From assembly GCA_947625975.1 (NCBI GenBank), contig CANQQL010000002.1, forward strand, positions 4,863-68,862: a stretch of DNA of 64,000 nucleotides, read 5' to 3'. The translations under genes and the position numbers were made by a program. Under the pieces are notes generated by a model. It did no database searches, was not told where the DNA came from, and saw nothing but the letters and a program-made list of their open reading frames with translations. This DNA is from an uncultured Bacilli bacterium (GTDB taxonomy: Bacteria; Bacillota_I; Bacilli_A; RFN20; CAG-826). Shown here in pieces: positions 16,399 through 47,500 of this stretch; position 1 is the stretch's first letter; every line of letters starts with the position of its first letter.

Positions 16399-16525
16399 AT
16401 TTTCACCTCAGTCATCGTTTCGTATTATAGCTTATTTTCTCTCTATATAAAATGCCTAATAGATATTTTTATACGCACAATTTTTTGAAGCAATAAATAA
16501 AATATTATTAGTAAGGAGGACTTTG

Positions 16526-17278
16526 ATGAAATCACTTTTAACATTTAATAATGTTTCAAAGTCGTTTTTCACTGAAACCGGCAAAACCGATGTTTTATCA
16601 AAAATAAGTTTTACACTTCATGATGATGAAATTATTGCAGTAATTGGACCATCTGGATGTGGAAAATCCACAATATTAAATCTTGCTTCTGCGCTGGAGA
16701 ACCAAACAAGTGGTGAAATAAAAAAAGATGGAAAAATCGGTTATATGTTTCAAAGAGATAACCTCTTTATGTGGCGTAATGTTTTAGATAATATTAAATT
16801 AGGTTTAGAAATCTCTAAAACATTAAACAAAGAAAATTTAGATTATATTCATAGTCTAATAAATAAATATGGTTTACAAGATTTTGCCAAGTATTATCCA
16901 AATGAGCTATCTGGAGGCATGCGACAACGTGTTGCACTTATTAGAACACTGGCCCTTAAACCAGATGTTCTCCTTCTTGATGAACCTTTTTCAGCCTTAG
17001 ATTATCAAACTCGTCTATTCGTTCTTGATGATGTTTATAAAATTATCAAGAGTGAGGGTAAATCCGCGATTATCGTAACACATGATATTTCTGAAGCAAT
17101 TAGTGTAGCAGATCGTGTAATAGTTCTTTCTAACCGACCTTGTAAAATTAAAAAAATTTTGGATATTAAATTTGACTTAGAAAATAAACGAACACCAACA
17201 GCTACAAGAAATGCAAAAGAATTTCAGCAATACTTTGATCTAATTTATAAGGAGTTAAATGCTTATGAAACAGATTGA
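16526..17278 (+). CDS. ABC transporter ATP-binding protein (NitT/TauT nitrate/sulfonate/HMP type)
   Basis: Walker A GPSGCGKST, signature LSGGMRQRV, Walker B LLLDEPFSALD. AAGGAGGA RBS before the ATG at 16526. Confidence 0.92.
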   Translation: MKSLLTFNNVSKSFFTETGKTDVLSKISFTLHDDEIIAVIGPSGCGKSTILNLASALENQTSGEIKKDGKIGYMFQRDNLFMWRNVLDNIKLGLEISKTLNKENLDYIHSLINKYGLQDFAKYYPNELSGGMRQRVALIRTLALKPDVLLLDEPFSALDYQTRLFVLDDVYKIIKSEGKSAIIVTHDISEAISVADRVIVLSNRPCKIKKILDIKFDLENKRTPTATRNAKEFQQYFDLIYKELNAYETD

Positions 17279-18083
17279 ATCAATTGAGCAATTCAAAAAA
17301 ATTAAAAAAAGAAGAAAAGTTTTAATTTTACTTTCACAAATTGGTTTAACCATACTATTTTTAGTCGCCTGGGAACTCTTGGCCAATTTAAATATCATAA
17401 ATGTATTCTTAGTATCTAAACCCTCTGATATTTTCAAACTTTTTATCAAATATATCCAAAGTGGCGAGTTGTTTGGGCACATAAAAATAAGTGTATATGA
17501 AACATTACTCGGCTTAATTATCGGTACATTTCTCGGTTTGATTATCGGTGTCTTATTATGGTGGAATGAAACAATTGCTAAAATACTTGATCCGTTTTTA
17601 GTCGTATTAAATGCTCTACCAAAAACCGCTCTCGCTCCTATCTTAATTATATGGGCAGGGACAGGAATTAAAGGTATAGTGCTTGTTGCAGTTTCCTTGT
17701 CAATAGTTGTCACTATTATGTCTTCCTACAATTATTTTGTTTCGGTAGACAAAGAACAAATTAAAATGCTAAAAACAATGGGCGCAAGCAAATTTCAAAT
17801 ACTTACCAAGCTTATATTGCCATCTAACATACCAAACATAATTAATATTATAAAAATAAATATTGGTATGAGTTGGGTTGGTGTAATCGTGGGCGAATTC
17901 CTTGTTTCTCGCGAAGGCATTGGTTATTTAGTAGTATATGGTGGCCAAGTATTTAAATTAGATCTCGTAATGATGGGCGTATTTATATTAGGAATTTTAG
18001 CTTTAATAATGTATTTAGTCCTAAACGCAATTGAAAAATATTATCGTTATACTAAATACTCCAAAAAAAGCCATAAATCTTAA
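17259..18083 (+). CDS. ABC transporter permease (BPD-type, NitT/TauT family)
   Basis: Six hydrophobic helices; overlaps the ATPase gene by 20 nt. Confidence 0.85.
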   Translation: MLMKQIESIEQFKKIKKRRKVLILLSQIGLTILFLVAWELLANLNIINVFLVSKPSDIFKLFIKYIQSGELFGHIKISVYETLLGLIIGTFLGLIIGVLLWWNETIAKILDPFLVVLNALPKTALAPILIIWAGTGIKGIVLVAVSLSIVVTIMSSYNYFVSVDKEQIKMLKTMGASKFQILTKLILPSNIPNIINIIKINIGMSWVGVIVGEFLVSREGIGYLVVYGGQVFKLDLVMMGVFILGILALIMYLVLNAIEKYYRYTKYSKKSHKS

Positions 18084-18093
18084 AAGCTATACA

Positions 18094-18125
18094 AAAAGTG
18101 AATTTTTTTAGCAAAATTCACTTTT
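18094..18125. terminator. Bidirectional terminator at the left border of the polysaccharide locus
   Basis: Perfect 13-bp stem AAAAGTGAATTTT-tttagc-AAAATTCACTTTT, flanked by an A-run and a T-run, between convergent genes. Confidence 0.8.
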
Positions 18126-18152
18126 TTTCAAATTTCATTAAAGCAAAAAATA

Positions 18153-18830
18153 TTATTTAGCAAAAAATTTCTTAAAAAAATTGTTTTTCGAAGCAGGCGC
18201 AACAAATAATGTCCCCATAAATGGCAAGTCACGGGACAACAACAATTCAATAGCTCTTTTTATATCCGCTATTTTTGTTTCGTTCTTTTTACCTACCAAA
18301 ACTACACATTCCAAATTATCTTTTAACAAGAAAATGTCTTGATATTTCAATATTGGAGGAAGCAATAAAATTATTCGATCATATCTATCTTTAGACTCAT
18401 TAATAAATTGATAAAATTGCCTTGATTGTAAAACTTTTGTTGGATAATTTGTATATCCCGCAATAACTAAATCCAAGCAGTCGTTTATTTTTATTAACAA
18501 ATCATTATTATTTAATTCCTCTGCTGCCATCTGTGACAATGTTTTTACATTAGTTACTCCATAAAATTTATCAAGCTTTGAATCATGCATACAAGCATCA
18601 ATTAAAAGAACTTTTTCACCATCTCTTGCGAATGTATCGGCAATCATTTTACTCATATATGCTGCATTGACGTGTATAACAGGTGCCATTATTCCGATAA
18701 TTTTTGCATACTTGCCTTGCACTGCTGTTAATTTATTACGAAATTCTAAAATGCTTGCTTGAAGTTTTTGATCAAGCTCTGCATTTTCTATAACAAATTG
18801 TAAATCATCTTGTTTATTTTTCATTTTCAT
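18153..18830 (-). CDS. CpsD/CapB-like BY-kinase homolog with degenerate Walker motifs (probable pseudokinase)
   Basis: Alignable by eye to CpsD: KIIGIMAPVIHVNAAYMSKMIADTFARDGEKVLLIDACMHDS. It lacks GK[ST], lacks the Walker B Asp (RIILLLPP), and has no Tyr in the C-terminal tail. Confidence 0.65.
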   Translation of the reverse strand: MKMKNKQDDLQFVIENAELDQKLQASILEFRNKLTAVQGKYAKIIGIMAPVIHVNAAYMSKMIADTFARDGEKVLLIDACMHDSKLDKFYGVTNVKTLSQMAAEELNNNDLLIKINDCLDLVIAGYTNYPTKVLQSRQFYQFINESKDRYDRIILLLPPILKYQDIFLLKDNLECVVLVGKKNETKIADIKRAIELLLSRDLPFMGTLFVAPASKNNFFKKFFAK

Positions 18831-19479
18831 TTCCTCCGGATGAATAAGTTATAGGAAACACATTTGAGCCAATTTCGATAATATCATTCGGTTCAAAGAT
18901 AGAATTATCTTTAATTTCTACCCAAATAGCTATAACACATCCTAGTAACAATCCAAATGCCGAAAATAAACTTATAGCCAAAGCATTTGATTTTGCAATG
19001 TTAACGGGCTCACTGGCGGGAAGAAGTATTTGAAATTTCGAGATGTCTTTATCAAATCCATTAACTGAATCCACTACCACTGATTGAGAAACTTCCATAA
19101 ACTCATTTAATACTACTTTTGTAATACTGCTATCTCTATTCGTAAAACTAACCAATACACTTGAATTACTTATAGAAAAAGATAAACCGTCTAAAATTTC
19201 AGTACTGGTTATTCCCACATTATTGCTATGAGTTATATTTTTTTCATTTAAATTATTAACAACCTTGGTATAAATTTTGACATCACTTTTCAAAACACTA
19301 ACAACTTTTGTGTTCGTTGGAAGACTATCAGTAAAAGACTCAAACTGTGCATCTGAACGGTAAATTGGTCTATTAAAGGCTAAGGCATATATAATTCCCA
19401 TTGCTAAAAAGCACACAAGAAAATAAATTATGGTAGCAAATCGTCTTTTAAATGCCCGTAATAACTGCCGAAATGTCAT
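18814..19479 (-). CDS. Wzz/CpsC-like polysaccharide chain-length determinant
   Basis: N-terminal TM helix plus a C-terminal TM helix flanking a roughly 150-aa loop. Overlaps the kinase-like gene by 17 nt. Confidence 0.7.
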   Translation of the reverse strand: MTFRQLLRAFKRRFATIIYFLVCFLAMGIIYALAFNRPIYRSDAQFESFTDSLPTNTKVVSVLKSDVKIYTKVVNNLNEKNITHSNNVGITSTEILDGLSFSISNSSVLVSFTNRDSSITKVVLNEFMEVSQSVVVDSVNGFDKDISKFQILLPASEPVNIAKSNALAISLFSAFGLLLGCVIAIWVEIKDNSIFEPNDIIEIGSNVFPITYSSGGNENEK

Positions 19480-19574
19480 TTCAAAATACTCCTTTCAATT
19501 TTGAATTATTATAACATATCCATTATCAAAAAAATATGCCATATATTTTTTTGCTGTATAGCTTCTTTTTAGCT

Positions 19575-20708
19575 TTACCCAAAATGAAGCGAATAAAGCT
19601 TAAATAATTTTATATTATTTTTTGTTAAAGCCAATTCCAAATCATAATATTTTTTATTTTTTGTTTTAAAGTCATTGAAAAAATTTTTTTTAATTATGCA
19701 TAGTATTGAAAATGATTGTTCCAAAAGTTCTTTTTTTAAAAGAAATAATCGATTATATGAAATAACACAATGCAATAAAAAGTATTCATAAAAGTCTTGA
19801 TCTAATTTTATATTAAACTTTTTACGATCGTCTAATAATTGTAAAAAAATCAAAATAGTATCTATAGATTTTTCATCATAAAGTGCTTTATTGGATAAAC
19901 TCTTTTTATTTATGCGATAATAATAAACACAATTTGGAACAAATTCTATTAACTTTGCAAGTCGATAAACAATCATTTGCATAACCGAATCTTCAAACCA
20001 ATATCCATCTGGAAATTTAATATTTTTAAATAATTCAGACTTAAAAACCTTCCCCCAAGCAAATCCGGGAATTAAATAACGCTCTTGGGACGAATGCTTT
20101 CTATAGTTTGTATTTTCTAATATTTTATTTTTTTCATCTACCTTACAAAAGTTGCCATAAACTACATCAGCATCAGTGGCAAAAGCTTTATGTAACAAAA
20201 TATCAATGGCATTTAATGGCAAAAAATCATCAGAATCCACAAACATTAAGTATTTCGCATTTGATTTTTGAAGACCAATATTTCTTGCTCGCGAAATTCC
20301 TTTGTTTTCTGTTAAAGTTATAATTGTTGCCTTTGAGCTATACTTATTATAAATATTCTGAGATTTATCTGTCGATCCGTTATCTATGACAATTAGTCTA
20401 AATTTATAGGATGATTCTTGTTGAAAAATACTTTTTAAACATTCGTCCAAATACTTTTCCCCGTTATAAATTGGCATGATAATATCTAGATCATAAACTT
20501 TTTTATTTTCATTTTTATTGTCTAGGGCAAAACTCGTTCCTTTATTTTCTCTACTTAATTTCTTATATTCCAATAAATTTACACTTGTAGGAGATTTTTT
20601 ATTACAATTTTTTATAAATAATTTTTTAAAACTATAATAAAAATATCCGATATGCAGCTTATTCAAAATATTTATAATATGACGTCTTAATTTCATAAAT
20701 CTTCTCAT
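19575..20708 (-). CDS. Glycosyltransferase family 2
   Basis: IIMPIYNGEKYLDECLKSI...LIVIDNGSTD...FVDSDD (DxD). Confidence 0.88.
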   Translation of the reverse strand: MRRFMKLRRHIINILNKLHIGYFYYSFKKLFIKNCNKKSPTSVNLLEYKKLSRENKGTSFALDNKNENKKVYDLDIIMPIYNGEKYLDECLKSIFQQESSYKFRLIVIDNGSTDKSQNIYNKYSSKATIITLTENKGISRARNIGLQKSNAKYLMFVDSDDFLPLNAIDILLHKAFATDADVVYGNFCKVDEKNKILENTNYRKHSSQERYLIPGFAWGKVFKSELFKNIKFPDGYWFEDSVMQMIVYRLAKLIEFVPNCVYYYRINKKSLSNKALYDEKSIDTILIFLQLLDDRKKFNIKLDQDFYEYFLLHCVISYNRLFLLKKELLEQSFSILCIIKKNFFNDFKTKNKKYYDLELALTKNNIKLFKLYSLHFG

Positions 20709-20711
20709 AGT

Positions 20712-22214
20712 TTATTTTTCCTTTGATAAGTTTGCTTCTTTTTTATTAAATTTAGTGTGTAAAAATTTTTTTATTTGGGACAAAATCTGCATTAATAACT
20801 CATCCTTTAATAAAAGTAAAGCTATAAAATAAATTAATACTCCTAAAACGACTTCAATTATAAAGCATAAATAATTTTTTAATTCAAGTACATTACGTAA
20901 AACAAAGCCAAAACCAAAAACAGAAATAAGCATTATAAGGGCAGATATGATTGATTTGTATGATAATTTAAATATTGAAGATACTTTTAAATATTTATGT
21001 TTCCAACAATAAACTATAAAATAGACTAGAATGATTAATTCTGCCAATATGGATGAAATTGCCGCACCATATGATCCAAGCCAAGGAATAAGTAGTAGTG
21101 TAGCTATACAATTAAATATTGCTGCACAAACTTGTCCGATATTTGATTTTGCTTGTAACCCAAATGGTGTAAAGATAATTGATTCGATACAAGATCTTAA
21201 AGAAATAATAAGTATTATAGGAGCTAAAATAATTAACAGATATTTTACTTTATCATAATCCATACCAAAGAAAAAAGGTACAAAATCAAATGAAACACAG
21301 ATAATTCCAAATGAGATTGGCAAAGCAATTAGCAATATAAACCTTATCGATAAATCGATATTTTGATTTATGGCCTTCACATCTTTCTTCGCAAATAAAT
21401 AAGCCATTCTAGATCTAATGACTAATGTATAGGCATTTAAAAACATCATACACATATTTATTATTTTATTTGCCTGTTCATAGAATCCTGTTTCTTCTTC
21501 TGAAGAAAATGCACCTAATATTACTTTATCGATTAATGCATAAAATTGATAGGCAATTGTCGGTACAAAATATACCATTACTTCTTTTAAATGTTTCTTT
21601 AAATTTAATTCTTTAAGATTAACTTTTGCAACAATCTTTTTCAATTTAAGCCAAAGCGATAAATTACCAAGTAATTGCGTAGAAGATAAAATTAAAATAT
21701 AAAGCCATAAATCTTCTTTCTTACTAATAAATAAAAAAATCAATACCACACCCAAAATTTTAAAAATACCATTTTTTAGAGCAATGTTTTTAAATTTTTC
21801 TAGTCCTTGATATAACCATTCTATATCTAAAATAGCAGAAATAAAGTATGGAATTTGCAGTAATAAAAATAATCTATATTCAGTGTATATTGATGCAATT
21901 ACTAGAAACAAAATAAGTGATATACCTAGAAATATTACTCTTAAGAAAAATATTTCGTAAAAAACTTTCGAATATTTATCCTTATTATCAGAATCCATAG
22001 CAATTATACGTTGTGCATGAGTTGCTGTACCAAGTCCTCCAGTTAGCATAAACATGGTAACGATTGAAAAGGTATAGCTGTATATTCCTATACCATCTGG
22101 CATTAAAATACGCGAAAGAATAGGAGTTGTAATAATAGGTATTATAGCTTCAATAAGTGTAACTATTAAATTAAAAATATAATTTTTACCTAAGTCACTT
22201 GTTTTCTTTATCAT
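20712..22214 (-). CDS. wzx: Wzx-type oligosaccharide flippase (MOP superfamily)
   Basis: 500 aa with about 14 TM helices. N-terminal ILSRILMPDGIGIYS is typical of polysaccharide biosynthesis flippases. Confidence 0.8.
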   Translation of the reverse strand: MIKKTSDLGKNYIFNLIVTLIEAIIPIITTPILSRILMPDGIGIYSYTFSIVTMFMLTGGLGTATHAQRIIAMDSDNKDKYSKVFYEIFFLRVIFLGISLILFLVIASIYTEYRLFLLLQIPYFISAILDIEWLYQGLEKFKNIALKNGIFKILGVVLIFLFISKKEDLWLYILILSSTQLLGNLSLWLKLKKIVAKVNLKELNLKKHLKEVMVYFVPTIAYQFYALIDKVILGAFSSEEETGFYEQANKIINMCMMFLNAYTLVIRSRMAYLFAKKDVKAINQNIDLSIRFILLIALPISFGIICVSFDFVPFFFGMDYDKVKYLLIILAPIILIISLRSCIESIIFTPFGLQAKSNIGQVCAAIFNCIATLLLIPWLGSYGAAISSILAELIILVYFIVYCWKHKYLKVSSIFKLSYKSIISALIMLISVFGFGFVLRNVLELKNYLCFIIEVVLGVLIYFIALLLLKDELLMQILSQIKKFLHTKFNKKEANLSKEK

Positions 22215-23587
22215 ATTGCAACATTAGCTCCTATGTAACTACTCATACTTTTCTCACCTTGTATATTATTTTCTGGGTAGGCATTCTCTTTCATAATTAA
22301 AAAACATAATAATATTATAAATTGCGTTATGTCTTCTCGAAAAATAGCGATTGTTTGTGAAAAGCACAGAAATACTAAGAGAGGAATCAAACGATTGTAG
22401 TCTTTATTTAATTTGAAATTAAAATTCGGACTAAAAATGTCCAAATAAATGCTCAATAATAAAATAAAACCAATTAATCCATATCCGCATATTATTTCTA
22501 ATATAATATTATGTGTTATCATCGCTTCGCCAGTGATAGAAATAACATTTATATTGTAAAAATTAATATAAGAGAATAATCCCGTACCAAAAAAACATTG
22601 TAATGGATGATTTAATAAACCATTTATATAAGACGCGTAAATTTCAAAACGTCCTGTGGTAATTTCATTAATATTTGATAAATCCCCGAATCTATTTAAC
22701 GTAGTTATTAAGAGTGTTTTTGTTTGAGGTACCACCAAAATCGTAATAATTACCAAAATTAATAATGAAAATAGTATTTTCATTCTTTTTATGTATTGAA
22801 TATTAAAAGCTAGCAATAATATTGCCCAAATTATGAGTAACAAAAAGTACGTTTTAGATGTCATTAATGCTCCAGCATATAATGAAATAATCGCACATAC
22901 AGTGAGAAATGGTATCAAATATTTTTTATACTTAATAAACAATTTTTCTTCTTGAATTTTTTTATCCAAGAAAACATACGTTGAACAAGTCGCAGTTAAT
23001 AAACAATATAATGAAAAAGTATTTTTATCTAATGTCGATAAAGCCCCACTCAAAGATTGAATAGCCGCATTCTCTATTGTCAAAGAATTTAATATCACAG
23101 CCACTTCCATGATTATACTACCTAAACATAAAAATAAAATTGCCGGCAATTTCCTTATTTTTATAGTATTGTCATACATTAGGTCAATAGCTAAAAATAT
23201 CGATAAAACCCATTTAATTAAATATGAAATACTAGTAGAATTTCCAACAATCAAATAAGCAAAAATTTCGTATACCAATAAGAATACAGCCACACTTATA
23301 GCTTTAATATTTAACTTGTTTTTCTTAAGGATTAATTGCATTAAAATTGATAAGGTAATAACATTGTAAAAGGCAAAACCAAATATAAAAATATATAAAT
23401 AAAATTGCATAAAAAAGAATAAACAATATATTTTGTGCTCCAAAGGCATATATATAATGACTATAAACATTAAGATAGATATTACACTCAATACACTATC
23501 TGGTAATAACTTAAAATATTTTAGAGATATATATAGTAGTGTAAAAATTAGAAGAATTATCCACTTTAAAACATTTGACTTTTTCAT
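22211..23587 (-). CDS. wzy: Wzy-type polysaccharide polymerase / O-antigen ligase-like membrane protein
   Basis: 458 aa, polytopic, with one larger loop. 4-nt overlaps with both neighbours. The position in the locus fits. Confidence 0.65.
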   Translation of the reverse strand: MKKSNVLKWIILLIFTLLYISLKYFKLLPDSVLSVISILMFIVIIYMPLEHKIYCLFFFMQFYLYIFIFGFAFYNVITLSILMQLILKKNKLNIKAISVAVFLLVYEIFAYLIVGNSTSISYLIKWVLSIFLAIDLMYDNTIKIRKLPAILFLCLGSIIMEVAVILNSLTIENAAIQSLSGALSTLDKNTFSLYCLLTATCSTYVFLDKKIQEEKLFIKYKKYLIPFLTVCAIISLYAGALMTSKTYFLLLIIWAILLLAFNIQYIKRMKILFSLLILVIITILVVPQTKTLLITTLNRFGDLSNINEITTGRFEIYASYINGLLNHPLQCFFGTGLFSYINFYNINVISITGEAMITHNIILEIICGYGLIGFILLLSIYLDIFSPNFNFKLNKDYNRLIPLLVFLCFSQTIAIFREDITQFIILLCFLIMKENAYPENNIQGEKSMSSYIGANVAI

Positions 23588-24681
23588 GATAAATTCCTCT
23601 TATTTGAATATTTTAAATATAATGCTTCATATTGTTTCGTAATTGTATCTATATCATATTTACGTGAATTTTTAACTGATTTTGTACTAAACAAGTTTCT
23701 TTTTTCATTATCTCTATAAAGAGTTATCATAGCGTTTAATAGCTCCTCTTGAGAGTTTGAATTTACTAAAATGCCATTTTCACGAACAATATCTGCAACT
23801 CCTCCAACATTAGTGGATATAATCGGTAACCCACAAGCCATTGCTTCTAGTATTGTCATTGGCAATCCTTCATATATTGAAGACAAAACAAAAACATCTG
23901 CCTTTGCATAAAAATCTTCAATATTAATAACATTTCCTATAAATTCAATGTGACTTTCAATGTTGTTTTTACAAGCATAATTTACCAATTCATCTCTTAA
24001 ATCACCATCACCTGCAAAAATTAACTTAACAGAATTATGCAATTTTAAAAAATCATTAAATGCTTTTAACAATAAAATTTGATTTTTTTGTTCTTCCATT
24101 CTTCCTACCGTTATAAATGTAAATGTTTCATGATCCTTTTTATTATTAAAATTAAATCTTTTTAAATCAACAAAATTATAAATTGTTTCAGCAGTTTTTA
24201 TTTTATAAAAATCTTTTAATTGCTTAGTAATAATATCGGAAATTCCCACCGGTATAGCTTTTTTCAGTTTAAATAGTATTTTTAAAATAAGTTTGCCACT
24301 TTTTTTTGATTCATAAATTGGCATATTATGCACTGTATGCAAAACCTTTACTTTATGAAATAAAACATATGGAAATAAATATGCATAGATATGCAAATGA
24401 GTATGAATAACATTTGGCCTTATTTTTTTTAAAATTTGTGACATTTTAAAAATTGCTCTTAAATTGATGCCCTTATTTTCGTCAAGTGAAATAATATTAA
24501 TATTTTCAATTTTTTCTAGTAAAGCCTTAGCTTCATTTTGAAAAAGTGTACGCTTAGCGATAAGATAAACATCAAATTTGCTTTTATCAATATGCTTTAC
24601 AAGTTGAGTGACCATTGTTTCGGCACCGCCAAAACATAGACCTGGAATTACTATAGCTACTTTTAACTTTTTCAAAATCAT
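23584..24681 (-). CDS. Glycosyltransferase family 4 (GT-B)
   Basis: FVLSSIYEGLPMTILEAMACGLPIISTNVGG (EX7E region). The ATG at 24681 is preferred over the TTG at 24690. Confidence 0.88.
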   Translation of the reverse strand: MILKKLKVAIVIPGLCFGGAETMVTQLVKHIDKSKFDVYLIAKRTLFQNEAKALLEKIENINIISLDENKGINLRAIFKMSQILKKIRPNVIHTHLHIYAYLFPYVLFHKVKVLHTVHNMPIYESKKSGKLILKILFKLKKAIPVGISDIITKQLKDFYKIKTAETIYNFVDLKRFNFNNKKDHETFTFITVGRMEEQKNQILLLKAFNDFLKLHNSVKLIFAGDGDLRDELVNYACKNNIESHIEFIGNVINIEDFYAKADVFVLSSIYEGLPMTILEAMACGLPIISTNVGGVADIVRENGILVNSNSQEELLNAMITLYRDNEKRNLFSTKSVKNSRKYDIDTITKQYEALYLKYSNKRNLS

Positions 24682-24820
24682 CAACCCCAAGTTTTTTATA
24701 ATTATAACATATATAAAGTAACAATTTAAGAAAAATAGTCTCTTTTATTAAGCAATTAATTTCATGTTGGATTGAAAATGCTAACTAACTAAAGCTCATT
24801 AAATATTCTTTTTTGTAATT

Positions 24821-25546
24821 TTAACGTGCTTCATTAAACTTAAATAACACTACTACTGTCAAAAGTATTAATTTAATATCAAACCAAATACTCCTTAACT
24901 TAAAATATTCTAACTCCAAAGTTTGTCGCTTTCGGGAATTATAAGAGACCATACTTCGACCATGAGTTTGCCAATAACCCGTTAATCCCGGACGGGCACA
25001 TAAAAGTATTGCTCTTTCGTTTTCAGAATAATTTTCATATAATTCTTGCTCACATATCGGTCTCGGTCCCACAAACGACATTGATCCAAATAAGATATTG
25101 AATAATTGCGGTAATTCATCAATAGACGTTTTTCGTAAAATTCGTCCAAGTTTTGTAATTCTTGGATCATTTTCTAATTTTCTTTCGATGCACCAAGTCT
25201 CATAATCTTCCTTACTTAAATATTCTTTAATACGCTTTTCAGCATCTATGTACATAGTTCTAAATTTATAAACAATAATAGGCTTTCCATTCTTTCCTAT
25301 ACGCTTATCCTTAAATAAAATTGGGCCACGCGATGTCAGTTTTACTATGATAGCTACAATTAAAAATAATGGAGAAAGAATGATAATGGCAATGAGTGAA
25401 GCAAATATATCAAAAATTCGTTTAAAAAACTCATAAATTTTTCCACCTTTAACAACAAATTTTTCAATTTCCACTTTATTAATTTCACTTGTTGTTTTTA
25501 TTTTTGTCGCAATTCCTCCATCTTGCTCTTGACATTTTTCTACCAT
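24821..25546 (-). CDS. Polyprenyl-phosphate sugar phosphotransferase (initiating 'bacterial sugar transferase', CpsE/WbaP C-terminal type)
   Basis: FKRIFDIFASLIAIIILSPLFLIVAIIVKLTSRGPILFKDKRIGKNGKPIIVYKFRTM...DELPQLFNIL...GPRP. Confidence 0.9.
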   Translation of the reverse strand: MVEKCQEQDGGIATKIKTTSEINKVEIEKFVVKGGKIYEFFKRIFDIFASLIAIIILSPLFLIVAIIVKLTSRGPILFKDKRIGKNGKPIIVYKFRTMYIDAEKRIKEYLSKEDYETWCIERKLENDPRITKLGRILRKTSIDELPQLFNILFGSMSFVGPRPICEQELYENYSENERAILLCARPGLTGYWQTHGRSMVSYNSRKRQTLELEYFKLRSIWFDIKLILLTVVVLFKFNEAR

Positions 25547-25590
25547 AAGTAACCTACTTTCTAATCATTTTCAACAAATAATTATCCATA

Positions 25591-25613
25591 TATGAATATA
25601 TTATATATTCATA
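25591..25613. promoter_or_regulatory. 11-1-11 perfect palindrome in the divergent control region of the polysaccharide locus
   Basis: TATGAATATAT-T-ATATATTCATA. Verified base by base; only the central base is asymmetric. Confidence 0.35.
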
Positions 25614-25757
25614 ATTAATACAAGCAATTGAATTTGTTTTTTCACTTTTTGTCAAATAAAGGCTATTTTTAAAATGACAAAAATCAAGAAATCATAACAA
25701 ATTTTCAATTACCTATTTATATCAATGCTTTTACGTATTGATATAAAAAATTGCACA

Positions 25758-25766
25758 TGATAAAAT
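25758..25766 (+). promoter_or_regulatory. Extended -10 element (TGATAAAAT) upstream of the plus-strand GT gene
   Basis: TGnTAAAAT, 52 nt upstream of the ATG at 25818. Confidence 0.3.
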
Positions 25767-25817
25767 TTGTTCGAAATAAGCGAGTATTTTTTTTCAACCA
25801 AATAGCGAGGTTACAAA

Positions 25818-26987
25818 ATGAAAATTTTATATTTTTTAGATAGTATCAACAATGCTGGCGGTATACAGGAACAAATAGTTAGATGGCTTCAAATTCTAAA
25901 TAAAAAAAATCAAATAGATATTTTAGGTTATTATTCCACAAATTCAAAAGGAGAAAAATTAAATACTGAGCAAAATTATATTAAAAGGCTTAATAAATTA
26001 GGTAGCCAAGTCTATTTAATTGATCCTTTCAAAAAAGGTTATTTTATAAAATGTATAAAACAAACTAAAAATTTTTTTAAAGAACATTGTGATTACGATA
26101 TTATTGAAGTTCACGGTTCTAGTAAATGCTATCACATTTTAAAATACGCCAAAAAATATGGGATAAAAGTAAGAATTGCTCATTCGCATTGCACACAGTT
26201 TCAAACTAAAAACAAGTTTAAAATTTTTATTGGAAATATTTTAAAAAGGAGTTACGCACGTTTAGCAACAACATATTTTGCTTGTTCTACTGAGGCCGGA
26301 AAATGGTTATTTTCTAATAAAATTATAAATTCTTCTAATTTTTATATAATAAACAATGCACTTGATTTAAATAAATTCTTTTTTTCCGAGACACTACGCT
26401 TAGAGACAAGAAATAATTTAAACATAAATAGTTCAAAAGTTATTTTGCATATTGGAAGATTTATGTATCAAAAAAATCATAGTTTCTTAATTGATATATT
26501 TAATGAACTTCATAAAATCGATAATAATTACTATCTTATATTATTAGGTGATAGCGTTGATGGAGACACTACTTTCAAAGAGCATATAATCCAAAAGGTT
26601 ACAAACTACAACCTTAGTAATTCTGTTTTATTTGCCGGCGTTCAAGAAGAAGTTAATAAATTTTTGAATGCTGCTGATTTATTTCTCTTACCATCCCATT
26701 ATGAAGGCCTACCAATTGTTTGTTTGGAAGCACAGGCCACTGGCTTACCATGTCTTTTATCCGATGTAATATCTTCCGAAACTAAAATCACCTCCTTAGT
26801 TTCTTTTTATTCTTTAAAGAACTCTGCTAAAGAATGGGCGCAAAAAATAGATGCGATTATTAAAAATTCGCCAAAACGATGTAATCATTCTGAAGAATTT
26901 GTATCCGCTAATTATGAAATTGTTTCAAGTACGCTAAATTTACAAAATTTATATAAAAAATTAATTAAAGAAAATAATCTTCATTAA
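25818..26987 (+). CDS. Glycosyltransferase family 4 (GT-B)
   Basis: LLPSHYEGLPIVCLEAQATGLPCLLSD (EX7E region). AGCGAGG RBS. Confidence 0.88.
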   Translation: MKILYFLDSINNAGGIQEQIVRWLQILNKKNQIDILGYYSTNSKGEKLNTEQNYIKRLNKLGSQVYLIDPFKKGYFIKCIKQTKNFFKEHCDYDIIEVHGSSKCYHILKYAKKYGIKVRIAHSHCTQFQTKNKFKIFIGNILKRSYARLATTYFACSTEAGKWLFSNKIINSSNFYIINNALDLNKFFFSETLRLETRNNLNINSSKVILHIGRFMYQKNHSFLIDIFNELHKIDNNYYLILLGDSVDGDTTFKEHIIQKVTNYNLSNSVLFAGVQEEVNKFLNAADLFLLPSHYEGLPIVCLEAQATGLPCLLSDVISSETKITSLVSFYSLKNSAKEWAQKIDAIIKNSPKRCNHSEEFVSANYEIVSSTLNLQNLYKKLIKENNLH

Positions 26988-27108
26988 AATAAATAAGTAG
27001 TCATAAGGTTTCAATAGCATAATAAATTCTTACTTATAAAACTTATAAAAAAGTATTAAATTTAATCACAATTTCTTGCTTACTAAATACACTACTATAG
27101 GTGATTTT

Positions 27109-28110
27109 ATGAAAAAGATTAAATACTTTTTATTATCAGCATTTCTAGTTTTACCATTGTCATTGTTAAACTCTTGTAATGACGATGGTCTTACTCATAT
27201 TACGATTGCTGAAGTAACGCATTCCTTGTTCTATGCCCCTCAATACATTGCTATAAACAAGGGATATTTTGAAGATGAAGGATTAAAAGTAGATGTAATT
27301 ACTACTCCTGGTGCCGATAAAACGATGGCGGCTTTACTTTCTAAAGAAGCTCAAATTGGCTTAATGGGACCAGAAGCAAGTGTTTATGTATACCAAAATG
27401 GACAAAAAGATTACGCTATTAATTTTGCTCAATTAACACAAAAAGATGGATCATTTATCTTAGGACGTGATCCTATTGAAAACTTTGATTACACCATGAT
27501 GCGTGGCAAAACGGTAATCGGTGGTCGTAAAGGTGGTATGCCTTTAATGATTCTAGAATATATTTTAAAACGCGCTGGATTAGATATTGGAGAAGATGAT
27601 CCAACTAAAGAAGTAAATGTCAGAACCGATGTTTCCTTTGATGCAATGTCAGGAGTATTTGTCGCCGGAGAATCTGATTTTGTTACAGCATTCGAACCAA
27701 CGGCATCACAAGTAGTTCGGTCTGGAAAAGGACATATTCTTACTTCTCTTGGCGAAGATTCCGGAGTTATTCCATATACATGTTATTCAACTTTGAAATC
27801 TTATATGGATAATAATGAAGAAATATTAAAAAAATTTACTCGTGCATTACAAAAAGGAATTGATTATGTTTTAAATAACACTATAGAAGACATTATTCCG
27901 CTTTTAAGAAAAGATTTTACCTCCAGTGATGATGAAGAATTAACCACTGTTATGAATAACTATCTTGGCATTGAGGCCTGGCCTACTAGTCTTCGTTTTA
28001 ATAAAGACAATTTTGATAAACTAATTGAAATTGTAAAAATGGCTGGTCAATTAAATGAAGAGGCCGTGGTTCCTTATGATAAATTAGTTACTAATGCTTA
28101 TATTAGTTAA
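27109..28110 (+). CDS. ABC transporter substrate-binding lipoprotein (NMT1/THI5-like, NitT/TauT family)
   Basis: Lipobox LLNSC. HSLFYAPQYIA...GYFEDEGL is typical of the NMT1 fold. AGGTGA RBS before the ATG at 27109. Confidence 0.85.
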   Translation: MKKIKYFLLSAFLVLPLSLLNSCNDDGLTHITIAEVTHSLFYAPQYIAINKGYFEDEGLKVDVITTPGADKTMAALLSKEAQIGLMGPEASVYVYQNGQKDYAINFAQLTQKDGSFILGRDPIENFDYTMMRGKTVIGGRKGGMPLMILEYILKRAGLDIGEDDPTKEVNVRTDVSFDAMSGVFVAGESDFVTAFEPTASQVVRSGKGHILTSLGEDSGVIPYTCYSTLKSYMDNNEEILKKFTRALQKGIDYVLNNTIEDIIPLLRKDFTSSDDEELTTVMNNYLGIEAWPTSLRFNKDNFDKLIEIVKMAGQLNEEAVVPYDKLVTNAYIS

Positions 28111-43008: not shown

Positions 43009-43821
43009 TTATAAATTTTTAATTTTCTCTATTGCTTTATTTAGATATTCGCATTCAATATCTTCTACTTCCCCTTTATCTACAAGGCGAGATATTTCTT
43101 CTTTTAATGGTAATTGACCTAAAATATCCAAATTGAAATCTTTTGCTACTTCTTCAAGATGCGATTTACCATAAATATAAATTTTTTCTTGGCATTTTGA
43201 GCATTCGACATAGGACATATTTTCGACAATACCTAAAATAGATATATTCATGGCACTTGCCATTTTAATGGCCTTTTTTACAATCGTAGAAACTAAATCT
43301 TGTGGCGAAGTGACAATTATAATACCATCAATAGGTAAGTATTGAAAAGTTGTTAAAGCAACATCTCCTGTTCCTGGTGGCATATCGACAATCATATAAT
43401 CAACATTATGCCATAAAACATCTGTATAAAATTGTTTAACTAAGTCGCCTATCATTGGTCCTCGCCAAATAATTGGATCTTCTTCGTTTTCCAATAATAA
43501 ATTAGCAGACATTATTTGGATACCGGTTTTAGATATTGCCGGATATATAATTCCTTGTTCTCCCATGGCTTTTTCAGTAATACCAAAAGACTTCGGAATA
43601 GAAGGTCCGGTTATATCGGCGTCAAGTATTCCGATACGATAACCTTCTTTGGAAAGCTGACTAGCAATCAAAGAAGAAACCAAACTCTTGCCTACGCCTC
43701 CCTTTCCGGAAATTACACCTATTATTTTCTTTACTTTTGAGAGTTCATTCAATTTTGCTTTTTCAATACGGTGATCACAACTTTGACCACATTCATTACA
43801 ATTTCCATTACATTGTGCCAT
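43009..43821 (-). CDS. Mrp/NBP35/ApbC-family Fe-S cluster carrier ATPase
   Basis: Deviant Walker A SGKGGVGKS, CxxC SKCQEKI, N-terminal Cys-rich CNGNCNECGQSC. The ATG at 43821 has a GAGGA RBS; the track start is a TTG. Confidence 0.88.
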   Translation of the reverse strand: MAQCNGNCNECGQSCDHRIEKAKLNELSKVKKIIGVISGKGGVGKSLVSSLIASQLSKEGYRIGILDADITGPSIPKSFGITEKAMGEQGIIYPAISKTGIQIMSANLLLENEEDPIIWRGPMIGDLVKQFYTDVLWHNVDYMIVDMPPGTGDVALTTFQYLPIDGIIIVTSPQDLVSTIVKKAIKMASAMNISILGIVENMSYVECSKCQEKIYIYGKSHLEEVAKDFNLDILGQLPLKEEISRLVDKGEVEDIECEYLNKAIEKIKNL

Positions 43822-43825
43822 AATA

Positions 43826-44431
43826 TTATTCCTCAACTTTTTTATATTTTATTTTGTTTTCAATTATTTCAATCATTGTGCCTTGATATAATAATTGCTT
43901 AAATTCATGATAAACCTCTTCGCCAACAAAAACTTTTAAAGTTATTAATTCGTTAAACTCTGTATTTTCTATGATACTATGCGCATCTTTGCATATATGA
44001 ACAACATTATCATAATTCATGTAACTAGTAGTTATATTACAAAGATATCCCTGGCATATTGCGTATTTTTCGACAGTTTTTATGACTAAATTAGCCATAT
44101 CAACATAAGTCCTTAAGAGACGAGCTGCTCCCAATAATGTTCCTCCGAAGTACCGCACCACTACTAATAGAACATTACTGAAATTATTTTTAATTAACAA
44201 ATCTAGCATAGGGCGTCCTGCCGTACCTTGTGGCTCTCCATCATCACTTGACTTTTGGAAATCTCCGATTATTCCCGCATAACAATAATGTTTTGCTTTC
44301 GGATATCTTTTCTTAATTTTAGTAATTTCTTGCTTAATATCCTCTTTGTTTGTGAGTGGTTTTATTATTCCAATGAAGCGTGAATGTTCAACTTCTAATT
44401 CTTTAATATATTCTGATACTATTGAATACAA
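43826..44431 (-). CDS. yigZ: YigZ/IMPACT-family protein (UPF0029)
   Basis: SDDGEPQGTAGRPMLDLL and VVVRYFGGTLLG. Confidence 0.85.
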   Translation of the reverse strand: MYSIVSEYIKELEVEHSRFIGIIKPLTNKEDIKQEITKIKKRYPKAKHYCYAGIIGDFQKSSDDGEPQGTAGRPMLDLLIKNNFSNVLLVVVRYFGGTLLGAARLLRTYVDMANLVIKTVEKYAICQGYLCNITTSYMNYDNVVHICKDAHSIIENTEFNELITLKVFVGEEVYHEFKQLLYQGTMIEIIENKIKYKKVEE

Positions 44432-44520: not shown

Positions 44521-47500
44521 TTAATTTGCCAAGGCATTAAACATATTCATAATATCATCATGAACATTTTTGAATAGGTTTTTATTATTAACTATTGAAC
44601 TACGCTCAGTTAACATATCATTATAAGCAGTTTCAAAAGAAGACTTTCTTTCTTCTCCATTTGGAAATACTAAGAAGACAACATCCTTGTTACTATGTAC
44701 CATGGTACAAATGCCATTTTCTCCAATAAGTTTATCGTAAATACCTTTTTTATAAATGAATTTAGCAATCATGGAATCTTCATTAGTACTCTTGCTATAT
44801 AACGACTCTAAACAACTAACAATTTTTTGTGCGTTAGTCATTTCGGTCGGCATACCATTTTCTTCATAAGGATTATTAAGATTTAAATAGTTATTTTTTA
44901 CAGCAGTAATTACATTGATACTATCGATTGATGAAGATAGAGCATTTGCTTCTAATTCATTAAAGAGAGGATACGCAAAATCCTCGCCATTACTATAGAA
45001 CCAAAGTTTGCTATAATCATTTAAGCTATCTAAATAATAATCATCTAAGTAACCGGAATCTTTAATATTAGTGCTTAAGAAACCTGCTACAATCTCACTG
45101 GCAATTAAAGCCTTTCCATTTTGGAAGCATCCTTTAAAAATTCCATCGACCGCTTTTGCATTAAGAGACGTGAAGACATTTTCTCCATCCTGTGGTATGT
45201 TACCTATTACTTCTTTAAGACTACTAGCAATAGAATTTAAAGCACCGCCTTCAATATCTATTTGTTTTTGACGATCCTCACTTGAAGGATATGTAGTTTC
45301 TATTTTTTCAAAGATTTTATCAAAGACATTTTTATGCTCTGCATCATAATCATTTCTAATGTAATCCGCAAACCCTACTGAATTAATTGCATTTTTCAAA
45401 ACTAATCCACGGCAATCTTTGAAAATTTCAGAATCCAACAAAAATTGAATAAATGTTCCTAAGCCTTTTTCACCAAAACTCGAAATTTCGAATTCGCTAC
45501 CAAACTTGATATTGTAATTAACTTGTCCATCAACATCAACTTCACAAATTTCGTTAAGCAATTTATTTATGTTATTTAATTCTATATTATAATCTTCACG
45601 GCCAATCAAATAATTTTCTTTATTTTCTCCGTTATATTTAGAAAATTCCGATAAGGCAACATTTTCGAAAGCTTTTTTGATATAAACTGGAACAGCATCA
45701 TAACATAAATCACTCGAATTTATAGTTTTTAAGATATTAGTAATGGAATCCGGCGACATCTTTTCGACATTGATATCTTGAATTTGTGTAACAGTTTCAT
45801 CAGTAACACTATCAAATATATTAAAAATATCATCAATTTCTTTTTCCCAAGATTTGCTATTCTGTTTATTAAATTCAATGATTTTATTTCTTGCATTCTT
45901 ATGTGCTGTCACACCCGGCATGTAGTCATATAAACCACCATCAGTTTTTGCATCATATATAACTTTAGATAAGCTAGATTCATCAAATATTAACCACATT
46001 AATTGAATAAATACTGTATCATTAGTCTCTAGACTATTCGCATCCATCAGATCCTTTGCATTAAATTGATTAAATACACTTGAATTTGCTAGTGCATTTA
46101 AAGTTTCTTTAATAATTTCCTCATTTTCACCTTTTATAAAATTAATATCTAGTTTATTTCTTAATGCATCGGTAAGTGATGTAAAATTATTCATAATAGT
46201 CGTCAAATAACTAATTTCTTCATCATCATAATGATCGTACTCTTTAGTATCGGCGTTATAAGTATATTCCGGTGTTGCTGCTCTTAGATTAAGTTCATAT
46301 CGTGTAGTTCCATCTAAAGTAGTAAAGTCAGATGTATCACATTGTTCGGTAAACATATGTATATAATGTGGAATAGCTCTAAATAAAAGCTTAGATTTAT
46401 TTAAAAGAGGTAAAAGATCATCAGCCTTTTCTTCAAGCCATCCTGTGTCATTTCCGGCATTATCGAAATCAACACCCGATGAACTTTGAATCAATTCAAA
46501 GAGATTATCTATTTCTCCTTTTGAGGCTTCTTTTGTAATCCATTCATCATTTAAATTTTCATTGCAACGATTATTTAGAATTGAGTCTCGAACAATTTCT
46601 AGTGTTGTCTTATATTTTAATTCAGTATTATTTATTTTATCAGTAGTACCAATAACAGCTTCCTCACCCAAAGTAGCATTCAAAAATTCTGTGACAATTC
46701 CCTCAAAGACGGTAGCATCAGCCTCGTTTTCTAAGTTTTCATTTTGCAAAGTATTAAATATTTTGGAATCATGTAAGAAGATTAAGGCATCTTTTAAATT
46801 GGTTAATTGTTCATTGTCATTACGTACATCATTAAAATCTGATCCTTTAATAGATTGAATTTTTTCTAAAGCGCTATAAACGGTATTAATTTCGGCATTT
46901 CGTTCGTCAGCATTATCAAGATCTACAAGAGCCTGAACATTAATTCTTGAATTAATTTTTAAATCAATACCATTAAAATCTCCTACAACTGAAGCGGCAT
47001 CTTTAATAGCGTTTGCAATAGCCATTCTTAAAATATTGGAGTTATTAATACCCACAAAATTTTCTTCTTTAGCTGTAAACAAACGACGATATTCCGCTTT
47101 TGATGGATCATTTAATACTTTATCTAACCCATCACTTCCGGATGTGTTGGAAATTGGACCATCTCCTGCACCAATTAATTGAATCTCTTTAATAAAATCA
47201 AATAAAATGTCGATCTCATATTCCCAATTCTTTTTTTCTGATATTTCTGCAATAAATTCCGTAGTTTTCGAATAACTCTCGGGATTATCAATATCTGCCA
47301 AATTAAGTCCTTTTGTACTGATTAATTGATTTTTTAAAAATTCCCCAAAGCTATTTTCATCTGTAAATAACTGCGTGGTAGACAAAGCTTTAACCAAACT
47401 TCTTGTTAGCTCGGTATCACTATTTATAAAGTCGATATTATCTAATGCGACTCCCTTTTCATTTAATTTTTGTGCACTATCAAGTAATGTAGAGAATGTT

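What the first reader, a model, noticed from the sequence alone, without database searches (positions are those of the whole stretch)
18153..19479. Wzz plus a catalytically dead BY-kinase homolog at the 3' end of the glycan operon
Gram-positive capsule loci use CpsC/CpsD: a transmembrane adaptor plus a BY-kinase with Walker A GxxxxGK[ST], A' hhhhDxDxR, Walker B hhhhD and a C-terminal Tyr cluster. Here the CpsD-like protein aligns well by eye, but its motifs are gone. Walker A is replaced by MAPVIHVNAAYMS. A' is LLIDACMH. Walker B is RIILLLPP, with no Asp. The last 40 or so residues (...PFMGTLFVAPASKNNFFKKFFAK) contain no tyrosine. No CpsB-type phosphatase or LytR-CpsA-Psr gene is present. The pair also sits last in the operon rather than first. 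This suggests a pseudokinase co-polymerase that retains a scaffolding role without phosphorylation.
Basis: partly seen in the sequence, partly recalled or inferred. Interest (0 to 1): 0.6.

Follow-up and report, generated by a model that had tools for sequence, protein, structure and literature searches.

The report
Dead tyrosine-kinase partner of capsule co-polymerase
The last two genes of this sugar-coat operon encode a membrane chain-length protein and a partner that keeps the shape of a bacterial tyrosine kinase but has lost every catalytic motif. It belongs to a conserved, so far unnamed Gram-positive family of such "pseudokinases", a kind already described in Gram-negative bacteria.

Summary
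ORF 18153-18830(-) is a true BY-kinase homologue (TIGR01007 E 7e-20, below cut-off). Its AF2 model has pLDDT 87, and the top 50 PDB fold hits are all BY-kinases. Walker A GK[ST], the second Asp and the Arg of Walker A', the Walker B Asp and the Tyr cluster are all gone. It is not a one-off decay. It sits in a clade of 29 representatives, all degenerate (SH-aLRT 100; 97 with motif columns masked). dN/dS in the family is 0.06-0.09, and the clade has its own conserved residues (LQN, YDH). Family members sit next to, overlap or are fused to a Wzz-like PCP gene, in or beside polysaccharide gene clusters. A natural fusion models like full-length Wzc, and its match to the CapA-CapB chimeras is about 45 columns longer than that of the kinase-like protein alone. 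The genome (89% complete) has no intact BY-kinase and no CpsB. In the same order, 0 of 12 genomes with the degenerate type have CpsB, against 16 of 20 with a canonical kinase. LCP absence is a trait of the whole order and is unrelated. BY pseudokinases that scaffold PCP-2 proteins are already known in Gram-negatives (EcpK/EpsV, HfsB/HfsA). I found no described example of this Gram-positive form.

The parts
18153..18830 (-). BY-kinase-like pseudokinase, 225 aa (probable start ATG 18824, giving 223 aa)
   Evidence: TIGR01007 E 7e-20, below cut-off. PDB sequence hits are all BY-kinases. AF2 pLDDT 87.4. Foldseek top 50 hits are all BY-kinases, TM 0.73-0.79. Member of a 29-representative all-degenerate clade.
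18660..18686 (-). Former Walker A (residues 49-57, APVIHVNAA); the G, K and S/T columns read N55, A56, A57
   Evidence: Alignment to BceF. Column counts: intact relatives G 102/104, K 104/104, S/T 103/104; clade 0 K at the Lys column, and Gly not among the four commonest residues at the Gly column.
18582..18608 (-). Former Walker A' (residues 75-83, LLIDACMHD); D78 kept, second Asp is C80, Arg is H82
   Evidence: The clade consensus is D-x-N-x-Y.
18354..18377 (-). Former Walker B (residues 152-159, RIILLLPP); the Asp column is L156, and R152 sits where the clade has a conserved His
18156..18200 (-). Lineage-specific basic amphipathic C-terminal tail APASKNNFFKKFFAK in place of the Tyr cluster
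   Evidence: Read from the sequence. Absent from most family members. pLDDT below 50. A role in membrane association is inferred only.
18814..19479 (-). Wzz-like PCP of PCP-2b size: 221 aa, two TM segments, about 130-aa external domain
   Evidence: PF02706 27.9 bits. It is the only Wzz gene in the genome. Homologous partners lie upstream of every family member examined.
18817..18918 (-). Cytoplasmic C-terminal tail of the PCP (residues 188-221, EIKDNSIFEPNDIIEIGSNVFPITY...), the presumed docking element for the pseudokinase
   Evidence: Conserved among partners and resembles the canonical DTTI...LGLxVL tail. In the natural fusion P0156 the same segment models as a helix plus a strand. The fusion model aligns to the CapA-CapB chimeras over 239 columns, against 194 for the kinase-like protein alone.
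18814..18837 (-). Gene overlap with a GGAGGA Shine-Dalgarno (18837-18832) inside the end of the PCP gene; implies translational coupling
   Evidence: Overlaps of 14-35 nt recur in L029, L030, L031, L039, L040 and L041.
18093..18126 (.). A/U-flanked 14-bp hairpin between the convergent pseudokinase and ABC permease genes; likely a bidirectional terminator
   Evidence: dG -13.8 kcal/mol, z -4.64, 0 of 200 shuffles fold as well.
19575..25546 (-). Rest of the Wzx/Wzy operon: Bac_transf PGT (24821-25546), GT4 (23584-24690), Wzy (22211-23587), Wzx (20712-22214), GT2 (19575-20708)
   Evidence: Pfam hits.

Best explanation
The 225-aa protein is a stand-alone BY pseudokinase, and the Wzz-like protein encoded just upstream is its PCP-2b-type partner. 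Shown: it keeps the BY-kinase P-loop-NTPase fold. It has lost the Walker A Gly-Lys-Ser/Thr, the second Asp and the Arg of Walker A', the Walker B Asp, most of the ExxRxxR ring motif and the Tyr-rich tail. It belongs to a distinct, selectively maintained family whose genes lie next to, overlap or are fused to a PCP gene, in or beside polysaccharide gene clusters. Genomes with this family have no intact BY-kinase and no CpsB phosphatase. Inferred: it cannot bind or hydrolyse ATP or autophosphorylate. It docks on the roughly 34-residue cytoplasmic tail of the PCP, as CapB docks on CapA. It acts as a phosphorylation-independent scaffold that stabilises or organises the PCP oligomer, so that Wzy can polymerise the lipid-linked repeat units. 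In this it would work as proposed for EcpK/EpsV and HfsB/HfsA. The two genes are probably translationally coupled, giving matched amounts of the two proteins.
For: Homology and fold.
Motif loss, by column against 104 intact relatives.
Family: a 29-representative clade, all degenerate, SH-aLRT 100, and 97 with motif columns masked. It has its own conserved residues: Q31, N32, Y67, Y129, H152, P203.
Selection: dN/dS 0.087 and 0.055 in two family pairs, against 0.045 for a partner gene.
Linkage: adjacent or overlapping PCP genes in every family context examined, and natural fusions P0010, P0012, P0015 and P0053.
Docking: the partner tail is conserved. The fusion model has pLDDT 92.3 and the tail forms a helix plus a strand. 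It matches full-length Wzc (E 2e-21, TMq about 0.7). It matches the CapAB chimeras over 239 columns, against 194 for the kinase-like protein alone.
No active partner: the other P-loop hits in the genome are MinD, ParA and Mrp. Each of the 10 family-positive genomes among 401 in the order has exactly one BY-kinase-like gene.
Phosphatase co-loss: CpsB is present in 0 of 12 genomes with the degenerate type and 16 of 20 with a canonical kinase, Fisher p 1.6e-5.
Precedent for the mechanism: PMC12004946.
Against: There is no biochemical or genetic evidence for any member of this family. Interaction with the PCP rests on gene linkage, natural fusions and a monomer AF2 model of a fusion from another branch of the clade, not on this pair. 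The alignment used for that model misplaced the tails of eight stand-alone partners. The genome is 89% complete, so an intact BY-kinase or CpsB could lie in the missing part. One LMW-PTP gene exists, although in an unrelated context. The Fisher test is not corrected for phylogeny. dN/dS was measured on other family members, not on the window gene. Some pseudokinases still bind nucleotide, and this was not tested.
Confidence: 0.72

Rival explanations
1. It is neofunctionalised. The former active-site region and the newly conserved residues (Q31/N32, Y67, N80/Y82 in the clade, Y129, H152) form a new ligand-binding or regulatory site. The protein would then control another step, such as the initiating phosphoglycosyl-transferase or Wzx/Wzy, rather than simply scaffolding the PCP.
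For: Six positions are conserved in the clade but not in active kinases. In two contexts the pair sits directly upstream of a large Bac_transf gene.
Against: The P-loop-equivalent segment is highly variable within the clade (entropy about 2.7-3.0 bits at the Gly and Lys columns). That argues against a conserved pocket there. The constant neighbour in every family context is the PCP gene, and the fusions are to the PCP, not to any other enzyme.
Confidence: 0.13
2. It is a regulatory partner of an active BY-kinase encoded elsewhere, forming a hetero-oligomer as proposed for CapB1/CapB2 or PtkB/PtkA.
For: The genome is only 89% complete. Inactive paralogues next to active ones are discussed for S. 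aureus and B. subtilis (PMC3795738).
Against: No intact BY-kinase was found in this genome. None was found in the nine other family-positive genomes, most of them 91-96% complete, each with a single match. CpsB is absent from all 12 genomes with the degenerate type.
Confidence: 0.05
3. It is a decaying relic of a kinase gene with no remaining function.
For: All catalytic motifs are gone.
Against: The frame is open here and in all relatives. The clade contains 29 representatives of 50%-identity clusters. dN/dS is 0.055-0.087. The fold is predicted with confidence. The overlap with the PCP gene and the Shine-Dalgarno are conserved. The clade has gained new conserved residues.
Confidence: 0.03
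4. It is still an active kinase or ATPase that uses non-canonical residues.
For: D78 of Walker A' and the YD(150-151) and PP motifs are retained.
Against: No Lys or Gly occurs at the P-loop positions in this protein, and no member of the clade has Lys at the Lys column. The loop often carries acidic residues. The Walker B Asp is replaced by aliphatic residues in nearly all members and by Asp in none. There is no Tyr tail to phosphorylate. The cognate phosphatase is lost.
Confidence: 0.03

Closest known systems
EcpK/EpsV of Myxococcus xanthus and HfsB/HfsA of Caulobacter crescentus (stand-alone BY pseudokinase plus a PCP-2 without a kinase domain; PMC12004946)
   Same: BY-kinase fold without Walker motifs or a Tyr tail. 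Encoded with a PCP that lacks a kinase domain, in a Wzx/Wzy pathway. Predicted docking on the cytoplasmic C-terminus of the PCP. No dependence on an active kinase. EcpK also carries a basic C-terminal helix, and the window protein has a basic amphipathic tail.
   Different: Those systems are Gram-negative, with large periplasmic PCP-2 proteins that contact an OPX outer-membrane exporter. This one is a Bacilli-type, CapA/CpsC-sized PCP (221 aa) with no outer membrane. Its nearest sequence relatives are short CpsD/CapB-like proteins. Common descent with EcpK or HfsB was not tested. Neither sequence was available to me, and whether they are among the 150 closest relatives could not be checked.
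CapA/CapB of Staphylococcus aureus and CpsC/CpsD of streptococci (PCP-2b plus an active BY-kinase)
   Same: Two-gene architecture, protein sizes, the PCP C-terminal tail motif, and the fold (CapAB chimeras 4jlv, 2ved, 3bfv: TM 0.75-0.82).
   Different: Walker A, A' and B, ExxRxxR and the Tyr cluster are all lost. No CpsB/CapC phosphatase is present. The pair lies at the 3' end of the operon instead of the 5' end.
CapB1 (S. aureus) and PtkB/EpsB (B. subtilis), BY-kinases reported as inactive (PMC3795738)
   Same: Gram-positive BY-kinase homologues discussed as possible pseudokinases.
   Different: They coexist with an active paralogue (PMC3795738), and from my own knowledge, not checked here, they keep the canonical motifs and Tyr clusters. 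Here the motifs are gone and it is the only homologue in the genome.
Fused PCP-2 variants with degenerate kinase domains (SMc01795, VV1_2305 and others listed by Cuthbertson et al. 2009; GumC called a 'pseudo-BY-kinase' in PMC9800525)
   Same: Natural fusions of a PCP with a dead kinase domain also occur in this clade (P0010, P0012, P0015, P0053; L015).
   Different: Those are proteobacterial PCP-2a-sized proteins. The fusions here are about 430-470 aa and of the Gram-positive type.

Membership tests
BY-kinase (TIGR01007 eps_fam; CpsD/CapB/Wzc catalytic domain) | Walker A ...GK[ST] | tested here: not met
   N55, A56, A57 sit where intact relatives have G 102/104, K 104/104 and S/T 103/104.
BY-kinase (TIGR01007 eps_fam; CpsD/CapB/Wzc catalytic domain) | Walker A' hhhhDxDxR | tested here: not met
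   LLIDACMHD: the first Asp is kept, the second Asp is Cys and the Arg is His.
BY-kinase (TIGR01007 eps_fam; CpsD/CapB/Wzc catalytic domain) | Walker B hhhhD | tested here: not met
   L156 sits where 104/104 intact relatives have Asp.
BY-kinase (TIGR01007 eps_fam; CpsD/CapB/Wzc catalytic domain) | C-terminal Tyr cluster | tested here: not met
   No Tyr in the last 40 residues. Most clade members end at ...LPxxGxxxxK.
BY-kinase (TIGR01007 eps_fam; CpsD/CapB/Wzc catalytic domain) | ExxRxxR oligomerisation motif | tested here: not met
   The window protein has A25, L28, R31. The clade has E in 8/29, no Arg among the commonest residues at position 28, and Q in 25/29 at position 31.
BY-kinase (TIGR01007 eps_fam; CpsD/CapB/Wzc catalytic domain) | Score above the curated model cut-off | tested here: not met
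   71.4 bits against a cut-off of 108.05. The window protein is under the cut-off, and the best E-value among the 22 of 23 family members that match (2.3e-21) is no stronger than a comparable score; their bit scores were not listed.
BY-kinase (TIGR01007 eps_fam; CpsD/CapB/Wzc catalytic domain) | BY-kinase fold | tested here: met
   pLDDT 87.4. The top 50 Foldseek PDB hits are all BY-kinases, E down to 4e-15.
BY pseudokinase / phosphorylation-independent PCP-2 subfamily (EcpK, HfsB; PMC12004946) | BY-kinase fold lacking the catalytic Walker residues and the Tyr tail | tested here: met
BY pseudokinase / phosphorylation-independent PCP-2 subfamily (EcpK, HfsB; PMC12004946) | Cognate PCP without a kinase domain, encoded in the same Wzx/Wzy cluster | tested here: met
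   The Wzz gene overlaps the pseudokinase gene. The operon has a PGT, GTs, Wzy and Wzx.
BY pseudokinase / phosphorylation-independent PCP-2 subfamily (EcpK, HfsB; PMC12004946) | Direct interaction with the cytoplasmic C-terminus of the PCP | tested here: inconclusive
   Supported indirectly by natural fusions, the conserved tail and the AF2 model of fusion P0156. No multimer model or experiment exists for this pair.
BY pseudokinase / phosphorylation-independent PCP-2 subfamily (EcpK, HfsB; PMC12004946) | Does not depend on an active BY-kinase or phosphatase | tested here: met
   No intact BY-kinase. CpsB is absent in 12 of 12 genomes with the degenerate type. Genome completeness of 89% is a caveat.
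BY pseudokinase / phosphorylation-independent PCP-2 subfamily (EcpK, HfsB; PMC12004946) | Required for polysaccharide synthesis | not testable with these tools
   Needs genetics. Only purifying selection was shown.
BY pseudokinase / phosphorylation-independent PCP-2 subfamily (EcpK, HfsB; PMC12004946) | Sequence kinship with EcpK or HfsB themselves | not tested
The class is functional, and the loss here may be independent.
MinD/ParA/Mrp deviant-Walker-A ATPases | KGGxGK[ST] deviant Walker A | tested here: not met
   Absent here. The genome's real MinD, ParA and Mrp carry it. MinD scores only E 0.006.

The most novel reading that the evidence does not exclude
This would be the first phosphorylation-independent PCP-2b system of a Gram-positive lineage. 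A whole clade of small-genome gut Bacilli would run Wzy-dependent polymer synthesis with a dead kinase. They would have discarded the kinase/CpsB-phosphatase cycle that is held to be essential for capsule assembly in streptococci and staphylococci. The clade-specific conserved residues (LQN on helix 2, YDH, D-x-N-x-Y) would mark a new, non-nucleotide way of controlling PCP oligomerisation.
Probability: 0.55. Interest if true: 0.55.

Novelty: new member of a known kind. Interest (0 to 1): 0.42.

Why it matters
The current model says PCP-2 co-polymerases need cycles of tyrosine phosphorylation and dephosphorylation. Exceptions (EcpK, HfsB) have been described only in Gram-negative bacteria.

This family gives a compact Gram-positive counterpart of about 205 aa plus a 220-aa PCP, with natural fusions. 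It shows the clean genomic signature of kinase-motif loss together with loss of the CpsB phosphatase.

It is a natural experiment on what the phosphorylation cycle is for. It is also a practical annotation point: the members whose source names were looked up are unnamed or called hypothetical, none matches a Pfam family above threshold, and the window protein scores below the NCBIfam cut-off, with the other members matching no more strongly by E-value.

Tried and rejected
- The word-indexed homologue search returned only the protein itself. The full HMMER scan was needed.
- The search for related loci with the 23-member alignment failed because no stretch was conserved enough. A 3-member alignment found only two MAG loci.
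- To model the PCP-pseudokinase contact I used a natural fusion, because no multimer tool is offered. Trimming the partner tails to tidy the alignment (A4) made the alignment worse, so the untrimmed A3 was used.
- MinD/ParA/Mrp identity was considered and rejected.
- The LMW-PTP as a cognate phosphatase was considered and rejected. It lies between an unrelated methyltransferase-like gene and a flavodoxin-like gene.
- A wall-less host as the reason for the missing LCP was considered and rejected. The genome has three PBP genes, and LCP is missing across the order.
- Direct comparison with EcpK and HfsB was not possible, because their sequences are not in reach of the tools.

Full report
**What is there.** On the minus strand, a Wzx/Wzy-type glycan operon runs from 25546 down to 18153. 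It encodes:

- a Bac_transf phosphoglycosyl-transferase (24821-25546)
- a GT4 (23584-24690)
- a Wzy-like polymerase (22211-23587)
- a Wzx flippase (20712-22214)
- a GT2 (19575-20708)
- a 221-aa Wzz-family protein (18814-19479)
- a 225-aa protein (18153-18830)

The last two genes overlap. A GGAGGA at 18837-18832 lies inside the end of the Wzz gene, 7 nt before the second ATG at 18824. That ATG is therefore the likelier start, and it gives the 223-aa product seen in public data. A 14-bp hairpin at 18093-18126 (dG -13.8 kcal/mol, z -4.6) separates the operon from the convergent ABC permease gene.

The 225-aa protein is a genuine BY-kinase homologue. TIGR01007 scores E 7e-20 but only 71 bits, against a cut-off of 108. 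Solved BY-kinases match at E 6e-11 to 4e-4. An AF2 model built on a family alignment has pLDDT 87.4, and its 50 best PDB fold matches are all BY-kinases (Wzc, CapAB, VpsO, BceF, Etk; TM 0.73-0.79).

The profile alignment places APVIHVNAA under the P-loop, IDACMHD under Walker A' and IILLLPP under Walker B. I compared the motif columns with 104 motif-intact relatives:

| Motif position | Intact relatives | Window protein |
|---|---|---|
| Walker A Gly | G 102/104 | N55 |
| Walker A Lys | K 104/104 | A56 |
| Walker A Ser/Thr | S/T 103/104 | A57 |
| Walker A' second Asp | D 100/104 | C80 |
| Walker A' Arg | R 94/104 | H82 |
| Walker B Asp | D 104/104 | L156 |
| ExxRxxR | E, R, R | A25, L28, R31 |

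There is no tyrosine in the C-terminal 40 residues.

**It is a family, not an accident.** A full HMMER scan of 1.84 billion representatives found 4242 relatives. The closest ones all share the same degeneration and end just after a conserved LP(F/L)xG motif with no Tyr cluster.

- In a tree of the 149 best representatives, the window protein lies in a 29-member group that is entirely degenerate. SH-aLRT is 100, and still 97 when all motif columns and the C-terminus are masked.
- Within this clade the P-loop columns are free to vary, with no Lys at the Lys column and no Asp at the Walker B position. New positions have become conserved: Q31, N32, Y67, Y129, H152 and P203. Walker A' has become D-x-N-x-Y.
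- Two pairs of close family members give dN/dS of 0.087 and 0.055. A partner PCP gene gives 0.045.
- The members whose names were looked up are unnamed or 'hypothetical'. None matches a Pfam family above threshold, and the window protein scores below the NCBIfam cut-off.

**Linkage to the co-polymerase.** In every family context I examined, a Wzz-like two-TM protein is encoded immediately upstream and overlaps by 14-35 nt. Several members are natural fusions of the two proteins (P0010, P0012/P0156, P0015, P0053; L015).

The cytoplasmic tail of the partner is conserved. It resembles the canonical CpsC/CapA tail that activates and completes the kinase fold. An AF2 model of the natural fusion P0156 has pLDDT 92.3 and shows this tail as a helix followed by a strand. 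The model matches full-length Wzc across the transmembrane, external and kinase parts (E 2e-21, TMq about 0.7). It aligns to the CapA-CapB chimeras over 239 columns, against 194 for the stand-alone model, which fits the tail occupying the CapA position. This is indirect evidence: it is a different clade member, a monomer model, and an alignment with some misplaced partner tails.

**No phosphorylation machinery.**

- The other P-loop hits in the 1.27-Mb genome (89% complete) are MinD, ParA/Soj and an Mrp-type protein at 43009-43836.
- No CpsB-type phosphatase was found.
- The single LMW-PTP sits in an unrelated neighbourhood.
- Among 401 genomes of the same order, 10 carry a family member (150 bits or more, against 112 or less for all other hits). 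These 10 span five genera and two families. Each has exactly one BY-kinase-like gene.
- All five sampled relatives in the window's genus have the degenerate type. Other genera of the order carry canonical kinases with intact motifs and Tyr clusters.
- CpsB is present in 0 of 12 genomes with the degenerate type and 16 of 20 with a canonical kinase, usually right beside the kinase gene. Fisher p is 1.6e-5, uncorrected for phylogeny.
- LCP ligases are missing from 30 of 32 genomes regardless of kinase type, and the genome does encode three PBPs.
- In 399 genomes sampled across the class, only the window's own genome scored at family level.

**Mechanism.** Shown: fold retention, loss of every catalytic determinant, purifying selection, conserved coupling or fusion to the PCP, and co-loss of the phosphatase. 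Inferred:

- The protein no longer binds or turns over ATP.
- It docks on the PCP tail.
- It acts as a non-catalytic scaffold for the PCP oligomer that supports Wzy polymerisation.
- The conserved LQN on the helix that carries ExxRxxR in active kinases suggests a retained but rewired subunit interface.
- The basic amphipathic tail NNFFKKFFAK may touch the membrane. It is specific to this protein and modelled with low confidence.

**Comparison with the literature.** BY pseudokinases are a published kind. EcpK/EpsV in Myxococcus xanthus and HfsB/HfsA in Caulobacter are proposed to scaffold PCP-2 proteins without phosphorylation. Sequence surveys listed further Gram-negative examples, including fusions (PMC12004946). 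GumC has been called a pseudo-BY-kinase (PMC9800525). In Gram-positives, only inactive paralogues that sit beside active kinases have been discussed, namely CapB1 and PtkB (PMC3795738).

I found no description of a motif-less, stand-alone or fused family in Bacilli. The literature search is limited to the open-access library.

**Verdict.** It adds a Gram-positive family, with a clear phosphatase co-loss signature, to a known functional class. I rate it a new member of a known kind, of moderate interest.

**Limits.** No multimer modelling was available. EcpK and HfsB could not be compared directly.

Noticed in passing
window 16523-18083 and 27076-28110, around the island 18153-26987: The glycan locus (GC 0.255-0.274, against about 0.30 in the flanks) sits between the ATPase and permease genes and the NMT1-type binding-protein gene of one ABC importer. 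This suggests it is an inserted island. The related locus in a congener (L029) lies in a different neighbourhood.
   Followed up: partly
L015 (G025) and 430-480-aa hits in G249, G182, G162: A sister genus carries PCP-pseudokinase fusions of about 465-485 aa. At least L015 is degenerate (VTSTREYQSKASLL, LVLDFDFEH, YVLVNCPP). They score about 100 bits with the family model, so they may be a second degenerate lineage.
   Followed up: partly
proteins P0027, P0031, P0032, P0037, P0051, P0057, P0080, P0082, P0087, P0088, P0090, P0115, P0126, P0139, P0150: Among the 150 closest BY-kinase relatives, at least seven further independent losses of the Walker A Lys and/or the Walker B Asp are scattered among intact kinases. 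Degeneration of BY-kinases therefore seems to be recurrent.
   Followed up: no
window 43009-43836 (-): An Mrp/ApbC-type P-loop ATPase with an N-terminal Cys-rich stretch (CNGNCNECGQSC). It is the only other P-loop hit to the BY-kinase model in the window.
   Followed up: no
window 44521-50172 (-): A 1883-aa ORF with an N-terminal multi-TM region and a long low-complexity, Asn/Asp/Ser-rich extracellular part. I did not look for family matches.
   Followed up: no
order-level genomes: LytR-CpsA-Psr ligases are absent from 30 of 32 sampled genomes of this order, although PBPs are present in the window's genome and many of these genomes have Wzy-dependent loci. How these bacteria anchor surface polymers is unclear.
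   Followed up: partly
L030 and L039, upstream of the PCP-pseudokinase pair: In one family branch the pair is preceded by defence or toxin-antitoxin-like genes (AbiH, AbiEii, MqsR/MqsA-like, AAA_13) and followed by a 607-aa Bac_transf. This looks like a variable island.
   Followed up: no
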